Below the pieces are notes generated by a model. It was not told the DNA's origin. It made no database searches and saw only the letters and a list, made by a program, of their open reading frames with translations. Positions 19,665-24,859 of a stretch of 40,901 bases of DNA are shown piece by piece. Each line of letters starts with the position of its first letter. Positions within the stretch are counted from its first letter, which is position 1. The DNA comes from a virus. The position numbers and the translations under genes were made by a program. The stretch lies in the UHGV virus genome UHGV-1629914. One strand, 5' to 3'.

Positions 19665-19908
19665 TTTGTGTATGTTCTTGATTTGCTTGTTCTGCTAAAT
19701 TGTCTATAAAAGCTTTGAGCAATGTAATGATTGTTGTTAGCAACTGAATTTGAAACAATACAATGCTAAACACTACAATTGCTACAATGCAAATTGAAAT
19801 GAAGAGCATATTGATGTCAAATTTGTTTGCTATCAATGTTTGCAGCCAAGTTATGACTGCAAACATTGAAATCAGTATGAATGTTTTGTGCTGTGATAAC
19901 GATTTCAT
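19642..19908 (-). CDS. small membrane protein (88 aa)
   Basis: Two hydrophobic segments (FILISMFAVITWL and ICIVAIVVFSIVLF); ATGA overlap at 19905-19908. Confidence 0.4.
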   Translation of the reverse strand: MKSLSQHKTFILISMFAVITWLQTLIANKFDINMLFISICIVAIVVFSIVLFQIQLLTTIITLLKAFIDNLAEQANQEHTQNDSGTAN

Positions 19909-20624
19909 TTGAAATGTATGGATGTTGGATTAGTGTCGGTCATTCTAACATGCCAGTCATAAATGAACCATCTTGCGAGGTCGTCATTTTTGATGTTATG
20001 AGTTTTGACATACTGTTCAGGACCTAATGACTCGCCGGTTTCAGGATTGACTGCGAAGTGGGATTCATCTACATTAGTAGACTTGTTTTTGATGTTTGAG
20101 ATTCGGAGCTTTGTATGCAGTTCAGTGCCGTCAGATTGTAGTGTTTTGACATAGAATGCAGTTTTTGTTGTTGCTTCATTGTCAAGCCATACTCCAAACT
20201 TAACTCCATGTGATTTCCAATATGCATTGTCAGCATCCCTGATTGCTTTGAAGTTCGGGTCATCAAGCCAAGGCTTGAAGACGTATACAGCATGTTGTTC
20301 TTTTCGAGTGATTTCGCCTTTGCCTTCACAAACTGTATGATACAGCCGCATTGCAGTTTCTTCATCAAAATAGTAAGTCAGATTGCCTGGCTTATCGAAT
20401 GTGCCAAGCTGTTGACCATCGATTACGAGAATGAATGTGTAATGCGAATCCTTGAAGAACTCTACTCGTACAGGTTGTTTGTGCTGTCTGCTGTTAAGCA
20501 GTCTGTCAATTGTAATGACTGCCCAGTTGGTGCCTGTCTTTGTTTTGTTGCCATGAAACAGTTCAGGATATGAAACTGTGTAAGGCAATGCTTTGTACTT
20601 CCAATGTTCATTAAAGCTTTTCAT
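19905..20624 (-). CDS. hypothetical protein (239 aa)
   Basis: ORF-track frame preceded by the repeat- and promoter-rich intergenic region 20625-20975. Confidence 0.55.
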   Translation of the reverse strand: MKSFNEHWKYKALPYTVSYPELFHGNKTKTGTNWAVITIDRLLNSRQHKQPVRVEFFKDSHYTFILVIDGQQLGTFDKPGNLTYYFDEETAMRLYHTVCEGKGEITRKEQHAVYVFKPWLDDPNFKAIRDADNAYWKSHGVKFGVWLDNEATTKTAFYVKTLQSDGTELHTKLRISNIKNKSTNVDESHFAVNPETGESLGPEQYVKTHNIKNDDLARWFIYDWHVRMTDTNPTSIHFK

Positions 20625-20975: not shown

Positions 20976-21461
20976 TCATTTGTAGTGCTCAGTTATGTAT
21001 GCTGAGCATAGCAATACAACTGATATGCAAATGACAATGTATGTTGGTGTAATCAGTGTCACATTAAATAGCAATGCAGTCAATGCACATACTGTTACTG
21101 ATATGAGTGTTGAAATGAATGCTGCATATGTACTAAACTTGCTTTTGAATAGACGCTCAATGATGTACGTTGTCGCAACAGACAGTAAGACTACACATGC
21201 AAATAACAACAGCCAAGTTGAGTTTGACGTTGTCGGCTCTTCAATAAATTGCAATGTTGCAGATGGCACTTCAACGTTGTTTGGCGCTTGTAAAGTGCCA
21301 CTCACTGCATCTGCATACATCACAGTTAAGTAGTGTCGTTGAATTTCTGCTGCGTCTACTTTATAGATTCTATGCCATGCAACATCTGATATGATGTATG
21401 TTGCAGCCATAAATGCGGCAATGCATAGCATATAAGAGCCAAACTTTGCAATCGGTTTCAT
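20976..21461 (-). CDS. multi-pass membrane protein (about 160 aa)
   Basis: Several hydrophobic segments. The ORF-track start at 21509 is a TTG inside a terminator hairpin, so the start was moved to the internal ATG (MKPIAKFG). Confidence 0.45.
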   Translation of the reverse strand: MKPIAKFGSYMLCIAAFMAATYIISDVAWHRIYKVDAAEIQRHYLTVMYADAVSGTLQAPNNVEVPSATLQFIEEPTTSNSTWLLLFACVVLLSVATTYIIERLFKSKFSTYAAFISTLISVTVCALTALLFNVTLITPTYIVICISVVLLCSAYITEHYK

Positions 21462-21491
21462 GCAAATATATTTTTGTTTGTATATGTACAT

Positions 21492-21525
21492 AAAAGAGCA
21501 AGTTCTCAATGTGGAGAACTTGCTC
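21492..21525 (-). terminator. intrinsic terminator (12-bp perfect stem plus T-run)
   Basis: GAGCAAGTTCTC / GAGAACTTGCTC stem with a 6-nt loop, followed on the minus strand by TTTTATG. Confidence 0.55.
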
Positions 21526-21866
21526 AGCTGACCTGTTGCCAGGTGAAAGCGTGGTGCAGCACCTTGTGCTGCAATGGCTATGCTGCCATCGCCATAACGG
21601 GCTGAGCATTGCCCAGCATCATTACACGACCAGCTGCGTTAAGCATACGCTTTGCTTTGTTGAAAAATTTGCCAGTTATTGGCTATACACATCTGTTCGT
21701 ACACGTTCATAAGCCGTCAAATACCTGTCACCCCCAATGCTTGGACAGTTGTCAGTCAGTTGTCCAGCTGACTGCAGTCTTTCTGAGTGTATCAAGTTCA
21801 GCGATTCTGCATCTAAAATGGCAATGGTTCAAAATGTGGAGGTGCCGCCATCGAAGGCGGGTCCGT
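21526..21866 (-). ncRNA. candidate circularly permuted (two-piece) tmRNA, ssrA-like
   Basis: (1) T-arm-like hairpin CCGCC-TTCGAT-GGCGG followed by CACCTCC plus A at 21860-21837. (2) About 100 nt downstream, GGGGGTG (21735-21729) pairs with CACCTCC over 7/7 positions with G3-U70 and discriminator A. (3) GGGGGUGACAGGUAUUUGACGGC resembles the conserved tmRNA 5' region. (4) A short frame ends ...GNAQPVMAMAA-UAG, followed by a hairpin. (5) About 48% GC locally. (6) Terminator at 21492-21525. Confidence 0.45.
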
Positions 21867-21876
21867 GCAAACTACG

Positions 21877-22707
21877 TTACGACTTCTTGCTTTCGCAACT
21901 TGTCGACATGTATGGGTTTATATTGTGAGTATTACAAAAATCTTTATACCATGCAATAAAGTCTGCAATTTGCTGTTTACATAAGTGCTTAAATTTATGC
22001 GCATCCCAATATTGAATACGATACACAGTGTAACCTATCGATGACATAAATATATCGCGCTTAGTATCTCGTTCAATGTGTTCTGGATATCTATGCTGTT
22101 TGCCGTCAATTTCAAGGTCTACATTGCCAGGCAATCTAAAATCAAGAAAATATACGCCATGTGCAGACGAATCATAATCTCGCTTATTTATACGATATTG
22201 AAACTCATATGCAATATGCTCAATGTCAAGTACACCTTTCCAATATGATTCTGCAAATGTTATAGTATTTCTTGCAGCCCACGGCTTATTTCGGCCATCC
22301 TCAAAAGATTTACGAACTTTATCACCTATCTTTTTACGAGTATTTTCTGAATGTCGTATATTATGACCAGCAGCAAACCATTTGTTATTGGCTTTATAAG
22401 TTTCATCGGCAAATAATTGTTTCATTCTATTTGACTGACGCTTACGTGCTGCAGAAGACCATTTGCCTTTGCCACCCTTACTTTCCTGATATTGACGTTT
22501 TTGTTCTGCACGTGTAGGCACTTTATGCGCACGTGCTAACTTATTATGTTTAGAACGTCCAGCAGCAACAAATGCTGCGTTCATTCTTTTACGTGTCTCA
22601 GGATGTTTTTTGTGATAATTGTTTTGCAACATTTGAATGTGCACACCAATTGCAACAAAATCTACCGCTGCCATATGTGCCATCATGTTCTTTTCCACAA
22701 TTTTCAC
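21877..22707 (-). CDS. freestanding homing-endonuclease-like protein (NUMOD3-like motifs plus C-terminal Vsr/DUF559-like PD-(D/E)xK-type domain)
   Basis: 276 aa with HPETRKRM and HSENTRKKIGDK (NUMOD3-like) and C-terminal VDLEIDGKQH ... GYTVYRIQYW resembling the Vsr/DUF559 core; sits between the tRNA cluster and the tmRNA candidate. Confidence 0.55.
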   Translation of the reverse strand: MKIVEKNMMAHMAAVDFVAIGVHIQMLQNNYHKKHPETRKRMNAAFVAAGRSKHNKLARAHKVPTRAEQKRQYQESKGGKGKWSSAARKRQSNRMKQLFADETYKANNKWFAAGHNIRHSENTRKKIGDKVRKSFEDGRNKPWAARNTITFAESYWKGVLDIEHIAYEFQYRINKRDYDSSAHGVYFLDFRLPGNVDLEIDGKQHRYPEHIERDTKRDIFMSSIGYTVYRIQYWDAHKFKHLCKQQIADFIAWYKDFCNTHNINPYMSTSCESKKS

Positions 22708-22735
22708 AAATATGCATAAGATATTAAAAGTTTTT

Positions 22736-22811
22736 GCAGCGCACCGAGATTCGAACTCGGACTCCCACCACTACAGTGGTACTCTACCGTTAAGCTACAC
22801 GTCTTTACAAG
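22736..22811 (-). other. tRNA-like element: clear T-arm plus 3' acceptor strand, 5' half does not fold canonically
   Basis: CCGAG-TTCGAAT-CTCGG then TGCGCTG-C at 22760-22736; no complementary 5' acceptor strand or cloverleaf found by hand upstream. Confidence 0.25.
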
Positions 22812-22889
22812 TGCCAAACACTGCAATATTTGACAAAAGTGCCAACATCAATCTACGTTCAATTGCAGTTGAATTAGTAGATATCGTTG

Positions 22890-22973
22890 AGCCAGTGGTC
22901 AGATTCGAACTGACGTGAGGCAATGCCTACCGGGTTACAAATCCGGTGGAGTCGACCGCTGTCCCACACTGGC
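22890..22973 (-). tRNA. class II (long variable arm) tRNA, anticodon ambiguous: loop UUUGUAA gives UGU by canonical register
   Basis: Perfect 7-bp acceptor GCCAGTG/CACTGGC, D-arm GGA-CAGCGGTCGAC-TCC, anticodon stem CCGGA/CCCGG (one A-C mismatch), variable arm AGGC-ATT-GCCT, T-arm GTCAG-TTCGAAT-CTGAC; 84 nt, no encoded CCA. Confidence 0.6.
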
Positions 22974-24469: not shown

Positions 24470-24859
24470 TCATTCGATGTTACCAGATAATATCCGAATG
24501 GCATCCAATGCATTTTCTCGTATCAAGCCAAACTTACCTATAACTTGAACAAAATGTTTGTCATTTTCAAATGTTGAGTCATCAAGAATGACATACTGCT
24601 TGATGTTGTGTTTCTCAACAAGTGCAGGCACTGCAGCAAATCTGTCATGAAAGCCCTCAGCATAAATTGATGGCAACAAATAGCCTGGCATATTACGCTT
24701 AAGCCACATTGTCTTGCAGTCATCAAGAATAGCCCAGCTACTTATCAAGCATATTGCACCAACATCTGACATCTGACAAATGTATCTCAACCAGCCAACA
24801 CCATCAATGTCCAAGAATATCACTTTGTCAGGCCAAATCACTTTGCTTGCTGTGTTCAT
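24470..24859 (-). CDS. possible HAD-like hydrolase (129 aa)
   Basis: N-terminal VIFLDIDGV resembles HAD motif I and VILDDS a later Asp motif; weak. Confidence 0.35.
   Translation of the reverse strand: MNTASKVIWPDKVIFLDIDGVGWLRYICQMSDVGAICLISSWAILDDCKTMWLKRNMPGYLLPSIYAEGFHDRFAAVPALVEKHNIKQYVILDDSTFENDKHFVQVIGKFGLIRENALDAIRILSGNIE

What the first reader, a model, noticed from the sequence alone, without database searches (positions are those of the whole stretch)
21526..21866. Candidate phage-encoded, circularly permuted (two-piece) tmRNA next to a homing endonuclease gene
Directly after the homing-endonuclease stop, the minus strand carries a T-arm-like hairpin, a 7-nt 3' acceptor strand (CACCTCC) and discriminator A. 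About 100 nt further on, GGGGGTG pairs with it over all seven positions including the G3-U70 wobble that defines alanine identity, and continues as GACAGGUAUUUGACGGC, resembling the conserved tmRNA 5' region (GGAUUCGACGGG). A short frame ending ...GNAQPVMAMAA-stop, then a hairpin and a strong terminator, follow. The order (3' acceptor piece before 5' piece) matches permuted ssrA genes. The stretch is about 48% GC against about 37% overall and has no credible coding frame. A phage-borne two-piece tmRNA beside a mobile endonuclease would be unusual.
Basis: partly seen in the sequence, partly recalled or inferred. Interest (0 to 1): 0.85.

Follow-up and report, generated by a model that had tools for sequence, protein, structure and literature searches.

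The report
Phage two-piece tmRNA gene, divergent lineage
This stretch is a real phage-carried gene for a circularly permuted (two-piece) tmRNA, the RNA that rescues stalled ribosomes; such genes are already known in phages, but this lineage is divergent enough that standard annotation tools miss it.

Summary
On the minus strand, window 21913-21492 encodes a permuted ssrA gene: an acceptor piece (three P2 3' strands, a GAAA hairpin, T-arm, CACCUCC, discriminator A), a 99-nt structured spacer, then a coding piece (GGGGGUG, P2 5' strands, a 31-codon tag frame ending PVMAMAA-stop, two hairpins, an intrinsic terminator). ARAGORN finds nothing in the window, and Rfam RF04321 gives only 24.6 bits (threshold 47). 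Comparative evidence settles it. Ten copies from independent samples fall into three sequence types. ARAGORN calls types B and C as permuted tmRNA at the same locus. Type A (window) differs from B at 21 helix pairs by double compensatory changes, and from C at 10, with only 1 pair lost; G3:U70 never changes. The tag frame shows protein-level selection (differences 7/5/15 by codon position, pN/pS 0.37, an in-frame indel) and has no start codon. The window copy is missed only because its T-loop has 6 nt; adding one base restores the ARAGORN call. The DUF559 endonuclease gene is a present/absent insertion whose last 13 codons overlap the acceptor piece. Phage two-piece tmRNAs are already documented, so this is a new, divergent member of a known kind.

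The parts
21492..21913 (-). Whole permuted ssrA (two-piece tmRNA) gene: acceptor piece, spacer, coding piece, terminator
   Evidence: Syntenic ARAGORN tmRNA* calls in L003, L125, L128, L130, L145.
21905..21913 (-). 5' end of acceptor piece: P2c 3' strand AUACAUGUC, pairs with 21685-21693. Lies inside the endonuclease ORF.
   Evidence: RNAalifold cols 1-9/232-240; 9/9 pairs; 1 compensatory pair in L125, another in type B.
21887..21898 (-). Acceptor-piece hairpin UUGC-GAAA-GCAA
   Evidence: All 4 pairs compensated in type B (CCUG/CAGG) and 3 in type C (UCAU/AUGA).
21864..21882 (-). P2b and P2a 3' strands (UCGUAACGU, A, GUUUGCACG). Contains the endonuclease stop codon UAA at 21877-21879.
   Evidence: Pairs with 21697-21716. 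A bulged G is conserved in all three types. 9 compensatory pairs A vs B and 3 A vs C.
21845..21863 (-). GAC followed by the T-arm CCGCC-UUCGAU-GGCGG (6-nt T-loop)
   Evidence: Rfam alignment. Stem compensated in type B (2 pairs) and type C (1 pair). The same 6-nt loop occurs in L075/L078, which score 89-99 bits on tmRNA models.
21835..21844 (-). Acceptor 3' strand CACCUCC, discriminator A, then CA (CCA not fully encoded)
   Evidence: L126, L127 and L129 encode ACCA. The phage's tRNA genes encode no CCA.
21736..21834 (-). Intervening spacer (inferred to be excised), with two hairpins at 21774-21810 and 21739-21768
   Evidence: Both hairpins were predicted by RNAalifold, with 3 and 2 compensatory pairs. 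The spacer is more conserved between types A and B than the tRNA-like domain is.
21717..21735 (-). 5' end of coding piece: acceptor 5' strand GGGGGUG (G3:U70), then ACAGGUAUUUGA (D-arm analogue)
   Evidence: Three acceptor pairs are compensated in type B while G3:U70 is kept.
21685..21716 (-). P2a, P2b (with bulged G) and P2c 5' strands
21578..21673 (-). Tag reading frame, GGC...GCA GCA UAG: GKFFNKAKRMLNAAGRVMMLGNAQPVMAMAA*. The resume codon is GGC (ARAGORN) or, alternatively, the in-frame GCA six codons further on. A small hairpin at 21671-21683 overlaps the GGC.
   Evidence: ARAGORN on relatives and on the edited window copy. Codon-position bias 7/5/15, pN/pS 0.37, an in-frame indel, and an in-frame TAG four codons upstream. 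The Rfam alignment suggests GCA.
21531..21573 (-). Two hairpins after the tag (UGCAGCAC-AAG-GUGCUGCA and ACCUG-GCAA-CAGGU)
21492..21525 (-). Intrinsic terminator: 12-bp stem plus a U run; inferred 3' end of the coding piece
   Evidence: Three compensatory pairs in L125.
21877..22717 (-). Neighbouring DUF559-domain endonuclease gene (context). An insertion between the tRNA cluster and the tmRNA gene, frameshifted in this window.
   Evidence: Pfam PF04480. Absent from L001, L003, L128, L130 and L145; present in L126, L127 and L129. A +1 A in the A-run at 22601-22615 relative to the intact 279-codon ORF of L126.

Best explanation
Window 21913-21492 (minus strand) is a phage-encoded, circularly permuted ssrA gene. 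Shown here: the gene order, a covarying tRNA-like domain, and a tag frame under protein-level selection. Everything that follows is inferred from established tmRNA biology. The element is transcribed as one precursor, probably together with the upstream tRNA cluster. RNase P cuts 5' of G1 of GGGGGUG. The acceptor piece is trimmed to discriminator A and given CCA by the host CCA-adding enzyme, as the phage's own CCA-less tRNAs must be. This releases the ~99-nt spacer. The ~79-nt acceptor piece and ~240-nt coding piece stay joined by the 7-bp acceptor stem and three P2 helices. G3:U70 directs charging with alanine by host AlaRS. With host SmpB and EF-Tu, the RNA enters ribosomes stalled on broken mRNAs and switches translation to its own frame. 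That appends (A)GKFFNK...PVMAMAA and terminates at UAG. The ...MAA end resembles the ...LAA degron, so tagged proteins are probably degraded. The likely benefit to the phage is that ribosomes stay free during infection.
For: Rfam RF04321 aligns the T-arm, acceptor stem and GGAC...GACG in the window, and aligns full-length in L003 and L125. ARAGORN calls the syntenic element a permuted tmRNA in 5 relatives, and in the window after a 1-nt T-loop insertion. Unguided RNAalifold recovers the acceptor stem, T-arm, P2a/b/c and hairpins; 13 of 65 pairs are compensatory. That compares with 4.5 +/- 1.5 in shuffles (0/500) and 0 in all slid registers. Type A vs B: 21 compensatory pairs and 1 lost out of 46. 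Type A vs C: 10 compensatory and 0 lost out of 45. G3:U70 is invariant. Tag frame: differences 7/5/15 by codon position, pN/pS 0.37, an in-frame 3-nt indel, PVMAMAA invariant despite 4 synonymous changes, and an in-frame stop 4 codons upstream with no start codon. The -5 U and -4 A before GGC are conserved. A terminator follows. The element is present at the same site in phages with and without the endonuclease gene. The 6-nt T-loop also occurs in tmRNAs scoring 89-99 bits. Tags ending ...AMAA recur in other phage-contig tmRNAs.
Against: All Rfam scores are below the gathering threshold (24.6-35.1 vs 47). ARAGORN is negative on all five type-A copies. No pseudoknot PK1 was found, only a 4-bp hairpin that overlaps the proposed resume codon. 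The window's P2a has a U.U/U.U mismatch. CCA is not encoded in the window. Fold energy is no better than shuffles (z = -0.37). No SmpB gene was seen among the ORFs tested. No expression, processing or charging data exist. Only three independent sequence types are available, so the covariation counts rest on few lineages.
Confidence: 0.88

Rival explanations
1. The lineage has a real tmRNA gene, but the window's type-A copy is a decaying or inactive allele. On this reading it was damaged by the endonuclease-gene insertion and by a T-loop deletion, and is no longer charged or processed properly.
For: The T-loop has 6 nt. The gene encodes ACA instead of CCA. P2a has a U.U/U.U mismatch. The endonuclease insertion separates the acceptor piece from the tRNA-Gly 3' end, which would otherwise define its 5' end. 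ARAGORN is negative on all type-A copies.
Against: Type A occurs in 5 independent samples with an intact tag frame. The distant L125 keeps the 6-nt loop and compensates the stem. 6-nt T-loops occur in tmRNAs scoring 89-99 bits. Type A also exists without the endonuclease gene (L001). The phage's own tRNAs lack encoded CCA too. All other helices are intact.
Confidence: 0.08
2. It is not a tmRNA but the structured 3' UTR and terminator region of the endonuclease gene, or some other tRNA-like regulatory RNA.
For: It directly follows, and overlaps, the endonuclease ORF in the window. Rfam scores are sub-threshold.
Against: The element is present and conserved in five endonuclease-free relatives, directly after a tRNA. 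The 31-32-codon frame is under protein-level selection. G3:U70 and the tmRNA-specific GGAC/GACG motifs are conserved.
Confidence: 0.02
3. The conserved frame is an ordinary small protein gene, or there is a gene on the opposite strand, and the tRNA-like pairing is incidental.
For: The mechanical ORF list shows a 116-codon ORF on the + strand (21609-21959) and short sense ORFs. Type B has an in-frame AUG 7 codons upstream of GGC (read directly from the L003 upstream sequence printed).
Against: Antisense stop-free stretches change frame and length between variants: 102, 71 and 46 codons. Types A and C have an in-frame TAG 4 codons upstream and no start codon. The window's internal AUG at codon 10 is not conserved (ACG or UCG in the other copies). 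Synonymous changes are seen upstream of the only conserved internal AUG.
Confidence: 0.02

Closest known systems
Two-piece (permuted) tmRNAs of marine myophages: OM43 phage Melnitz, pelagimyophages, T4-like cyanophages (PMC9004378)
   Same: Phage-encoded. Gene order is acceptor piece, spacer, coding piece. G3:U70 acceptor stem. The tag ends in Ala-Ala. Sits among tRNA or early genes of a large myovirus-like genome with T4-type topoisomerase II.
   Different: Those are detected by ARAGORN, and comparable IMG/VR examples (L075, L078) score ~89-99 bits on the alpha/permuted Rfam models. This lineage scores 24.6-35.1 bits on RF04321 and only 11-13 bits on the alpha and beta models. It has a long 31-32-residue tag, an extra hairpin in the acceptor piece, no recognisable PK1 and no glutamine riboswitch. 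The samples appear to be human-gut cohorts rather than marine (inferred from sample names).
Alphaproteobacterial two-piece tmRNA (Caulobacter; Keiler, Shapiro & Williams 2000, cited in PMC9004378), Rfam RF01849/RF04321
   Same: Circular permutation; a three-segment P2 helix between the 5' part of the acceptor piece and the coding piece; the TLD motifs GGAC and UUCGA..GACG.
   Different: Cellular rather than viral. PK1 is retained. Tags are of the ANDN... type. The 7-nt T-loop is the consensus.
One-piece phage tmRNAs (mycobacteriophage Bxz1 group, Bacillus phage G, huge phages; PMC4131195, PMC7162821) and the TLD-only RNA of phage DS6A
   Same: A phage carries its own ribosome-rescue RNA.
   Different: Those have standard gene order, or no tag at all (DS6A, proposed to inhibit host tmRNA). 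This one is permuted and has a selected tag frame.
Intron-form tmRNA genes with homing endonuclease genes inside a group I intron in the T-loop (PMC11915505)
   Same: A homing-type endonuclease gene is physically associated with an ssrA gene.
   Different: Here the endonuclease gene is free-standing, inserted just upstream. It overlaps the 5' end of the acceptor piece rather than sitting in a T-loop intron. No intron is involved.

Membership tests
tmRNA, permuted/two-piece form (ssrA; Rfam RF04321) | Gene order: T-arm and 3' acceptor strand come before the 5' acceptor strand and tag frame | tested here: met
   The same order is seen in all 10 copies.
tmRNA, permuted/two-piece form (ssrA; Rfam RF04321) | 7-bp acceptor stem with G3:U70 and discriminator A (alanine identity) | tested here: met
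   7/7 pairs in all three types. Pairs 4-6 are compensated in type B and G3:U70 is invariant.
tmRNA, permuted/two-piece form (ssrA; Rfam RF04321) | T-arm with a UUCGA T-loop | tested here: met
   The 5-bp stem covaries. The loop is 6 nt, not 7, in types A and C. The same is seen in L075/L078, which pass the Rfam thresholds.
tmRNA, permuted/two-piece form (ssrA; Rfam RF04321) | 3'-terminal CCA after the discriminator | tested here: inconclusive
   The window and L001 encode ACA, type B encodes ACC, and L126/L127/L129 encode ACCA. The phage's tRNA genes encode no CCA, so post-transcriptional addition is plausible but was not shown.
tmRNA, permuted/two-piece form (ssrA; Rfam RF04321) | P2 helix joining the two pieces next to the tRNA-like domain | tested here: met
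   P2a/b/c were recovered by RNAalifold. 10 compensatory pairs A vs B and 4 A vs C. A bulged G is conserved.
tmRNA, permuted/two-piece form (ssrA; Rfam RF04321) | Tag reading frame without a start codon, ending in a hydrophobic ...AA C-terminus plus stop | tested here: met
   31-32 codons ending PVMAMAA-stop. pN/pS 0.37, differences 7/5/15 by codon position, an in-frame indel, and a stop 4 codons upstream.
tmRNA, permuted/two-piece form (ssrA; Rfam RF04321) | Pseudoknot PK1 upstream of the resume codon | tested here: not met
   Only 11 nt separate P2c from GGC. Only a 4-bp hairpin was predicted there, and it is partly broken in L125. No pseudoknot-aware prediction was run.
tmRNA, permuted/two-piece form (ssrA; Rfam RF04321) | Score at or above Rfam's curated gathering threshold (47 bits) | tested here: not met
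   Window 24.6, L001 24.9, L003 30.8, L125 35.1 bits.
tmRNA, permuted/two-piece form (ssrA; Rfam RF04321) | Detected by ARAGORN as tmRNA* | tested here: inconclusive
   Negative in the window and in all type-A copies. Positive for types B and C at the same locus, and for the window after adding 1 nt to the T-loop.
tmRNA, permuted/two-piece form (ssrA; Rfam RF04321) | Processing into two RNAs, alanylation, and SmpB-dependent trans-translation | not testable with these tools
   Needs RNA-seq or northern blots, in vitro charging, and proteomics.
Alpha-, beta- or cyanobacterial sub-lineages of permuted tmRNA (RF01849, RF01850, RF01851) | Clade-specific sequence and structure outside the tRNA-like domain | tested here: not met
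   L003 gives alpha 12.7 bits (GA 50) and beta 11.5 bits (GA 84), over the TLD only, with no cyano hit. None were reported for the window.
tRNA (RF00005) | Contiguous cloverleaf with an anticodon arm | tested here: not met
   No RF00005 hit in 21350-22050 even at E <= 10. The acceptor strands are 101 nt apart in reverse order.
Free-standing homing endonuclease gene (the neighbouring ORF) | Nuclease domain, plus presence/absence polymorphism at one site among close relatives | tested here: met
   PF04480 DUF559 scores 22.8 and 25.9 bits (GA 20.6). Present in the window, L126, L127 and L129; absent at the same junction in L001, L003, L128, L130 and L145. Cleavage activity and target site were not testable.

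The most novel reading that the evidence does not exclude
This is a fourth, independently diverged lineage of permuted tmRNA, carried by ~175-kb phages that appear to be from the human gut and whose hosts probably use one-piece tmRNA. Its tRNA-like domain is exchanged as two physically separated but co-adapted halves (types A and B differ at 21 compensated pairs in phages ~95% identical). That exchange would be driven by, or linked to, the adjacent homing endonuclease: 4 of 5 type-A copies carry it and 0 of 4 type-B copies do. In addition, the conserved, covarying 'spacer' would be a functional third RNA or processing platform rather than discarded sequence.
Probability: 0.2. Interest if true: 0.6.

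Novelty: new member of a known kind. Interest (0 to 1): 0.4.

Why it matters
It adds a divergent, apparently gut-associated lineage to the known phage two-piece tmRNAs, which so far are described almost entirely from marine and aquatic phages (PMC9004378). It exposes an annotation blind spot: ARAGORN misses copies with a 6-nt T-loop (the window's type A, and L075/L078, which Rfam scores at 89-99 bits), although it did call the 6-nt-loop copy in L125. This lineage also falls below Rfam's threshold, so such genes are under-counted in phage genomes. The three sequence types form a natural covariation experiment on the tRNA-like domain and P2. Near-identical phages carry fully re-coded but structurally equivalent acceptor, T and P2 helices, while G3:U70 and a bulged G stay fixed. 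The insertion of an endonuclease gene into the 5' edge of the acceptor piece offers a testable case of mobile-element traffic at an ssrA gene.

Tried and rejected
1. ARAGORN on the window and sub-region found no tmRNA; the cause is explained.
2. Rfam at gathering threshold found only tRNAs.
3. blastn and megablast against GenBank phages found no homologue of the element.
4. Single-sequence fold energy gave no signal, z = -0.37.
5. ViennaRNA cofold of the window's two pieces gave unstable, length-dependent P2 predictions. I replaced these with the comparative model.
6. A pairing of CUGGCAAAUU with the acceptor piece, predicted by cofold, was rejected because type B has no complement.
7. The outer helix of the acceptor-piece hairpin (CGAC/GUCG) was rejected as a conserved feature. 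It is absent in L125 and competes with P2b.
8. The metagenome scan for the resume context plus tag end found 0 hits.
9. The lineage-motif scans in IMG/VR and metagenomes gave mostly chance hits (L131-L152; L134 was inspected and discarded). Only L145 was real.
10. The genome scan of 100,044 species found 0 hits, so no donor or host was identified.
11. The anchor protein 19905-20624 gave only short contigs.
12. No SmpB was found among 9 small window ORFs; 130+ kb of the genome remain unseen.
13. I looked for PK1 by eye and in the RNAalifold output and did not find it.
14. I did not build a lineage-specific covariance model. At about 255 positions it would exceed the calibration limit, and homology was already obvious from the alignment.

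Full report
**1. Observation**

- The neighbouring ORF (21877-22707) ends with UAA at 21877-21879.
- GAC plus a T-arm CCGCC-UUCGAU-GGCGG follows at 21845-21863.
- The 3' acceptor strand CACCUCC is at 21838-21844, with discriminator A and then CA.
- GGGGGUG begins 101 nt further on, at 21729-21735. It pairs with CACCUCC at all seven positions, with a G.U at position 3:70.
- It continues as ACAGGUAUUUGACGG.
- A frame ending ...GNAQPVMAMAA-UAG ends at 21578.
- Two hairpins and a 12-bp terminator with a U run follow (21525-21496).
- GC is 0.46-0.49 across 21500-21900, like the adjacent tRNA cluster.

Taken alone, the window gives weak statistical support. ARAGORN reports six tRNAs and no tmRNA. 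Rfam at gathering thresholds reports only tRNAs. A permissive scan of 701 nt gives RF04321 (tmRNA_permuted) at 24.6 bits against a threshold of 47, E = 0.0057, covering only the T-arm, acceptor stem and first P2 pairs. The fold energy is no better than shuffles, z = -0.37.

**2. Relatives**

No GenBank phage matches the region. The window's topoisomerase II subunit is 39% identical to that of Chryseobacterium phages MA9V-1/2, 37% to Sphingomonas phage PAU and about 33% to the Lak phages.

I found nine further copies of the element. They came from an exact-motif scan of IMG/VR, from the small membrane protein encoded just downstream, and from a lineage-motif scan of metagenome contigs. The sources are two ~175-kb IMG/VR contigs, Logan and ENA assemblies, and one metagenome contig. 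They fall into three sequence types:

| Type | Copies | Notes |
|---|---|---|
| A | window, L001, L126, L127, L129 | 6-nt T-loop |
| B | L003, L128, L130, L145 | 7-nt T-loop |
| C | L125 | flanking protein only 46% identical; 6-nt T-loop |

ARAGORN calls types B and C as permuted tmRNA (tmRNA*) at the syntenic position. The tags are GKFFNKAKRTLNAAGRVMMLGNAQPVMAMAA* and GNFINKAKRSLNNAMGRVMTLGAPAPVMAMAA*. RF04321 aligns full-length to L003 (30.8 bits) and L125 (35.1 bits).

**3. Structure and covariation**

RNAalifold on types A and C, with no guidance, returns the following:
- a 7-bp acceptor stem;
- the T-arm;
- three helices between the 5' part of the acceptor piece and the coding piece: P2a, P2b (with a conserved bulged G) and P2c;
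- a GAAA-capped hairpin inside the acceptor piece;
- two hairpins in the spacer;
- a small hairpin at the start of the tag.

Thirteen of the 65 predicted pairs carry double compensatory changes. With the pair-counting tool, 98.4% of cells are paired. The 13 compensatory pairs compare with 4.5 +/- 1.5 in shuffles (0 of 500 reach 13). Every slid register gives 0 compensatory pairs and 25-38% pairing. The structure was derived from the same four sequences, which favours it somewhat.

Type B cannot be aligned reliably by MAFFT, so I laid it out helix by helix.

| Comparison | Pairs | Unchanged | One-sided change, pair kept | Compensatory on both sides | Gained | Lost |
|---|---|---|---|---|---|---|
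| A vs B | 46 | 20 | 2 | 21 | 2 | 1 |
| A vs C | 45 | 32 | 1 | 10 | 2 | 0 |

The acceptor stem changes from GGGGGUG/CACCUCC to GGGCUCG/CGAGUCC, which re-codes pairs 4-6 while G3:U70 stays. L003 cofolds robustly into the same architecture.

The divergence between types A and B is confined to the structural strands. The spacer and the mRNA-like domain are almost identical.

**4. The tag is translated**

Between the window and L125, the 31/32-codon frame differs at codon positions 1/2/3 in 7/5/15 sites. This gives pN/pS = 0.37, and there is one in-frame 3-nt indel. The last seven residues, PVMAMAA, are invariant although four of their codons carry synonymous changes, and UAG becomes UAA.

Types A and C have an in-frame UAG four codons upstream of the proposed resume codon GGC, with no start codon in between. 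The only conserved internal AUG lies downstream of several synonymous changes. Translation without conventional initiation is what trans-translation predicts.

The resume codon is GGC according to ARAGORN. Its -5 U and -4 A are conserved (UAACU or UAAAC), resembling E. coli's UAGUC; that comparison is from my own knowledge. The Rfam alignment instead places the start at the in-frame GCA six codons later. I cannot decide between the two.

Opposite-strand stop-free stretches are not conserved.

**5. Why the tools missed it**

Lengthening the window's T-loop from UUCGAU to UUCGAUU is enough for ARAGORN to call a permuted tmRNA with the expected tag. Restoring CCA, copying L125's T-stem or copying L125's P2a does not help.

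The 6-nt loop is not evidence of decay:
- L125 keeps it while compensating the stem.
- The unrelated phage-contig tmRNAs L075 and L078 have the same CUUCGANG arrangement and score 89-99 bits on the permuted and alpha models.

The missing CCA (ACA) is also unremarkable, because none of the six phage tRNA genes encodes CCA, while L126, L127 and L129 encode ACCA.

**6. The endonuclease gene**

The neighbouring ORF has a DUF559 nuclease domain.

- In L001, L003, L128, L130 and L145, the acceptor piece follows a tRNA-Gly(UCC) within about 2 nt.
- In L126, L127, L129 and the window, about 840 bp carrying the endonuclease gene sits between them.
- The ORF reads into native sequence. Its last 13 codons (YMSTSCESKKS-stop and the preceding NP) cover P2c, the acceptor-piece hairpin and the start of P2b.
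- The window's copy has an extra A in an A-run (22601-22615). This separates the N-terminal zinc-finger segment from the rest of the ORF.
- The gene is found with 4 of 5 type-A copies and 0 of 4 type-B copies. This is suggestive of linkage, but the sample is small.

**7. Mechanism**

Shown here: the permuted gene order, a covarying tRNA-like domain with alanine identity, intermolecular P2 helices, a translated tag without a start codon, and a terminator.

Inferred from established tmRNA biology:
- co-transcription with the tRNA cluster;
- RNase P cleavage at G1;
- 3' trimming and CCA addition;
- release of the spacer;
- alanylation by AlaRS;
- SmpB/EF-Tu-dependent entry into stalled ribosomes;
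- tagging with ...PVMAMAA and proteolysis.

No PK1-4 pseudoknots were identified, so this looks like a reduced tmRNA. The benefit to the phage is speculative: it may keep ribosomes available, or back up the host tmRNA.

**8. Comparison with what is known**

Phage tmRNAs have long been known (PMC4131195, PMC7162821). Two-piece forms are documented in 53 unique structures from phage genomes, 50 of them marine or aquatic (PMC9004378). In my own sample of 123 IMG/VR loci, ARAGORN found 45 permuted tmRNAs, several with ...AMAA tags.

What is new is the lineage:
- It is below Rfam's threshold.
- It is not recognised by the alpha or beta clade models.
- It is absent from 100,044 representative bacterial and archaeal genomes.
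- It has a long tag, an extra hairpin and a structured spacer.
- Judging from ENA sample names, which is only an inference, it comes from human-gut cohorts.

**Verdict:** this is a genuine permuted ssrA gene and a new, divergent member of a known kind. Interest is moderate.

Noticed in passing
window 21736-21834 (-): The spacer between the two tmRNA pieces, expected to be discarded, is more conserved between types A and B than the tRNA-like domain is. It contains two hairpins with 3 and 2 compensatory pairs. Its function is unknown; it could be a processing platform or a separate RNA.
   Followed up: partly
window 22601-22615 (-), within ORFs 21877-22707 and 22598-22717: The DUF559 endonuclease gene is frameshifted in the window by one extra A in an A-run, relative to the intact 279-codon ORF in L126. 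This could be a pseudogene, a sequencing error or slippage.
   Followed up: partly
window 21877-22717 vs L001, L003, L126-L130, L145: The endonuclease gene co-occurs only with the type-A tRNA-like domain (4 of 5 type A, 0 of 4 type B). The A/B divergence forms two separate blocks (acceptor piece and coding-piece 5' end) flanking a near-identical spacer. This suggests recombination plus selection for matched halves.
   Followed up: partly
window 22737-22804 (-) and 22889-22973 (-): Where relatives have tRNA-Gly(UCC) and a 74-nt tRNA-Thr(UGU), the window has different genes. One is a weak tRNA-like sequence (Rfam 31.5 bits, poor acceptor stem, called Leu(UAA) only at relaxed ARAGORN settings). 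The other is a different 85-nt tRNA-Thr(UGU) with a long extra arm.
   Followed up: partly
window 24470-24859 (-): A 129-residue ORF just upstream of the tRNA cluster matches PF18143, the HAD domain of 'Swiss Army Knife' RNA repair proteins (E = 6e-8). This may be an RNA-repair theme next to the tRNA/tmRNA block.
   Followed up: no
L075 2822-3059, L078 535-795, L086 4130-4926 (IMG/VR loci): ARAGORN misses permuted tmRNAs with a 6-nt T-loop that Rfam scores at 89-99 bits (L075, L078). L086 has a weak RF04321 hit (34.5 bits) spread over ~800 nt, which suggests a large insertion inside a permuted tmRNA gene.
   Followed up: no
window ~21640-21646 with ~21546-21552 (-): RNAalifold predicts an invariant long-range pairing, AAAGCGU with ACGCUUU, that encloses the tag frame and post-tag hairpin. 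It never varies, so it can be neither supported nor refuted. It may explain why the first tag codons are conserved at the nucleotide level.
   Followed up: no
L053 3636-4036 (IMG/VR contig from the same metagenome, 3300045988): A standard one-piece tmRNA with tag GNNSYALAA lies on another viral contig from the same sample. The tag looks Bacteroidota-like (from my own knowledge), which is a weak hint about the community and the possible host.
   Followed up: no
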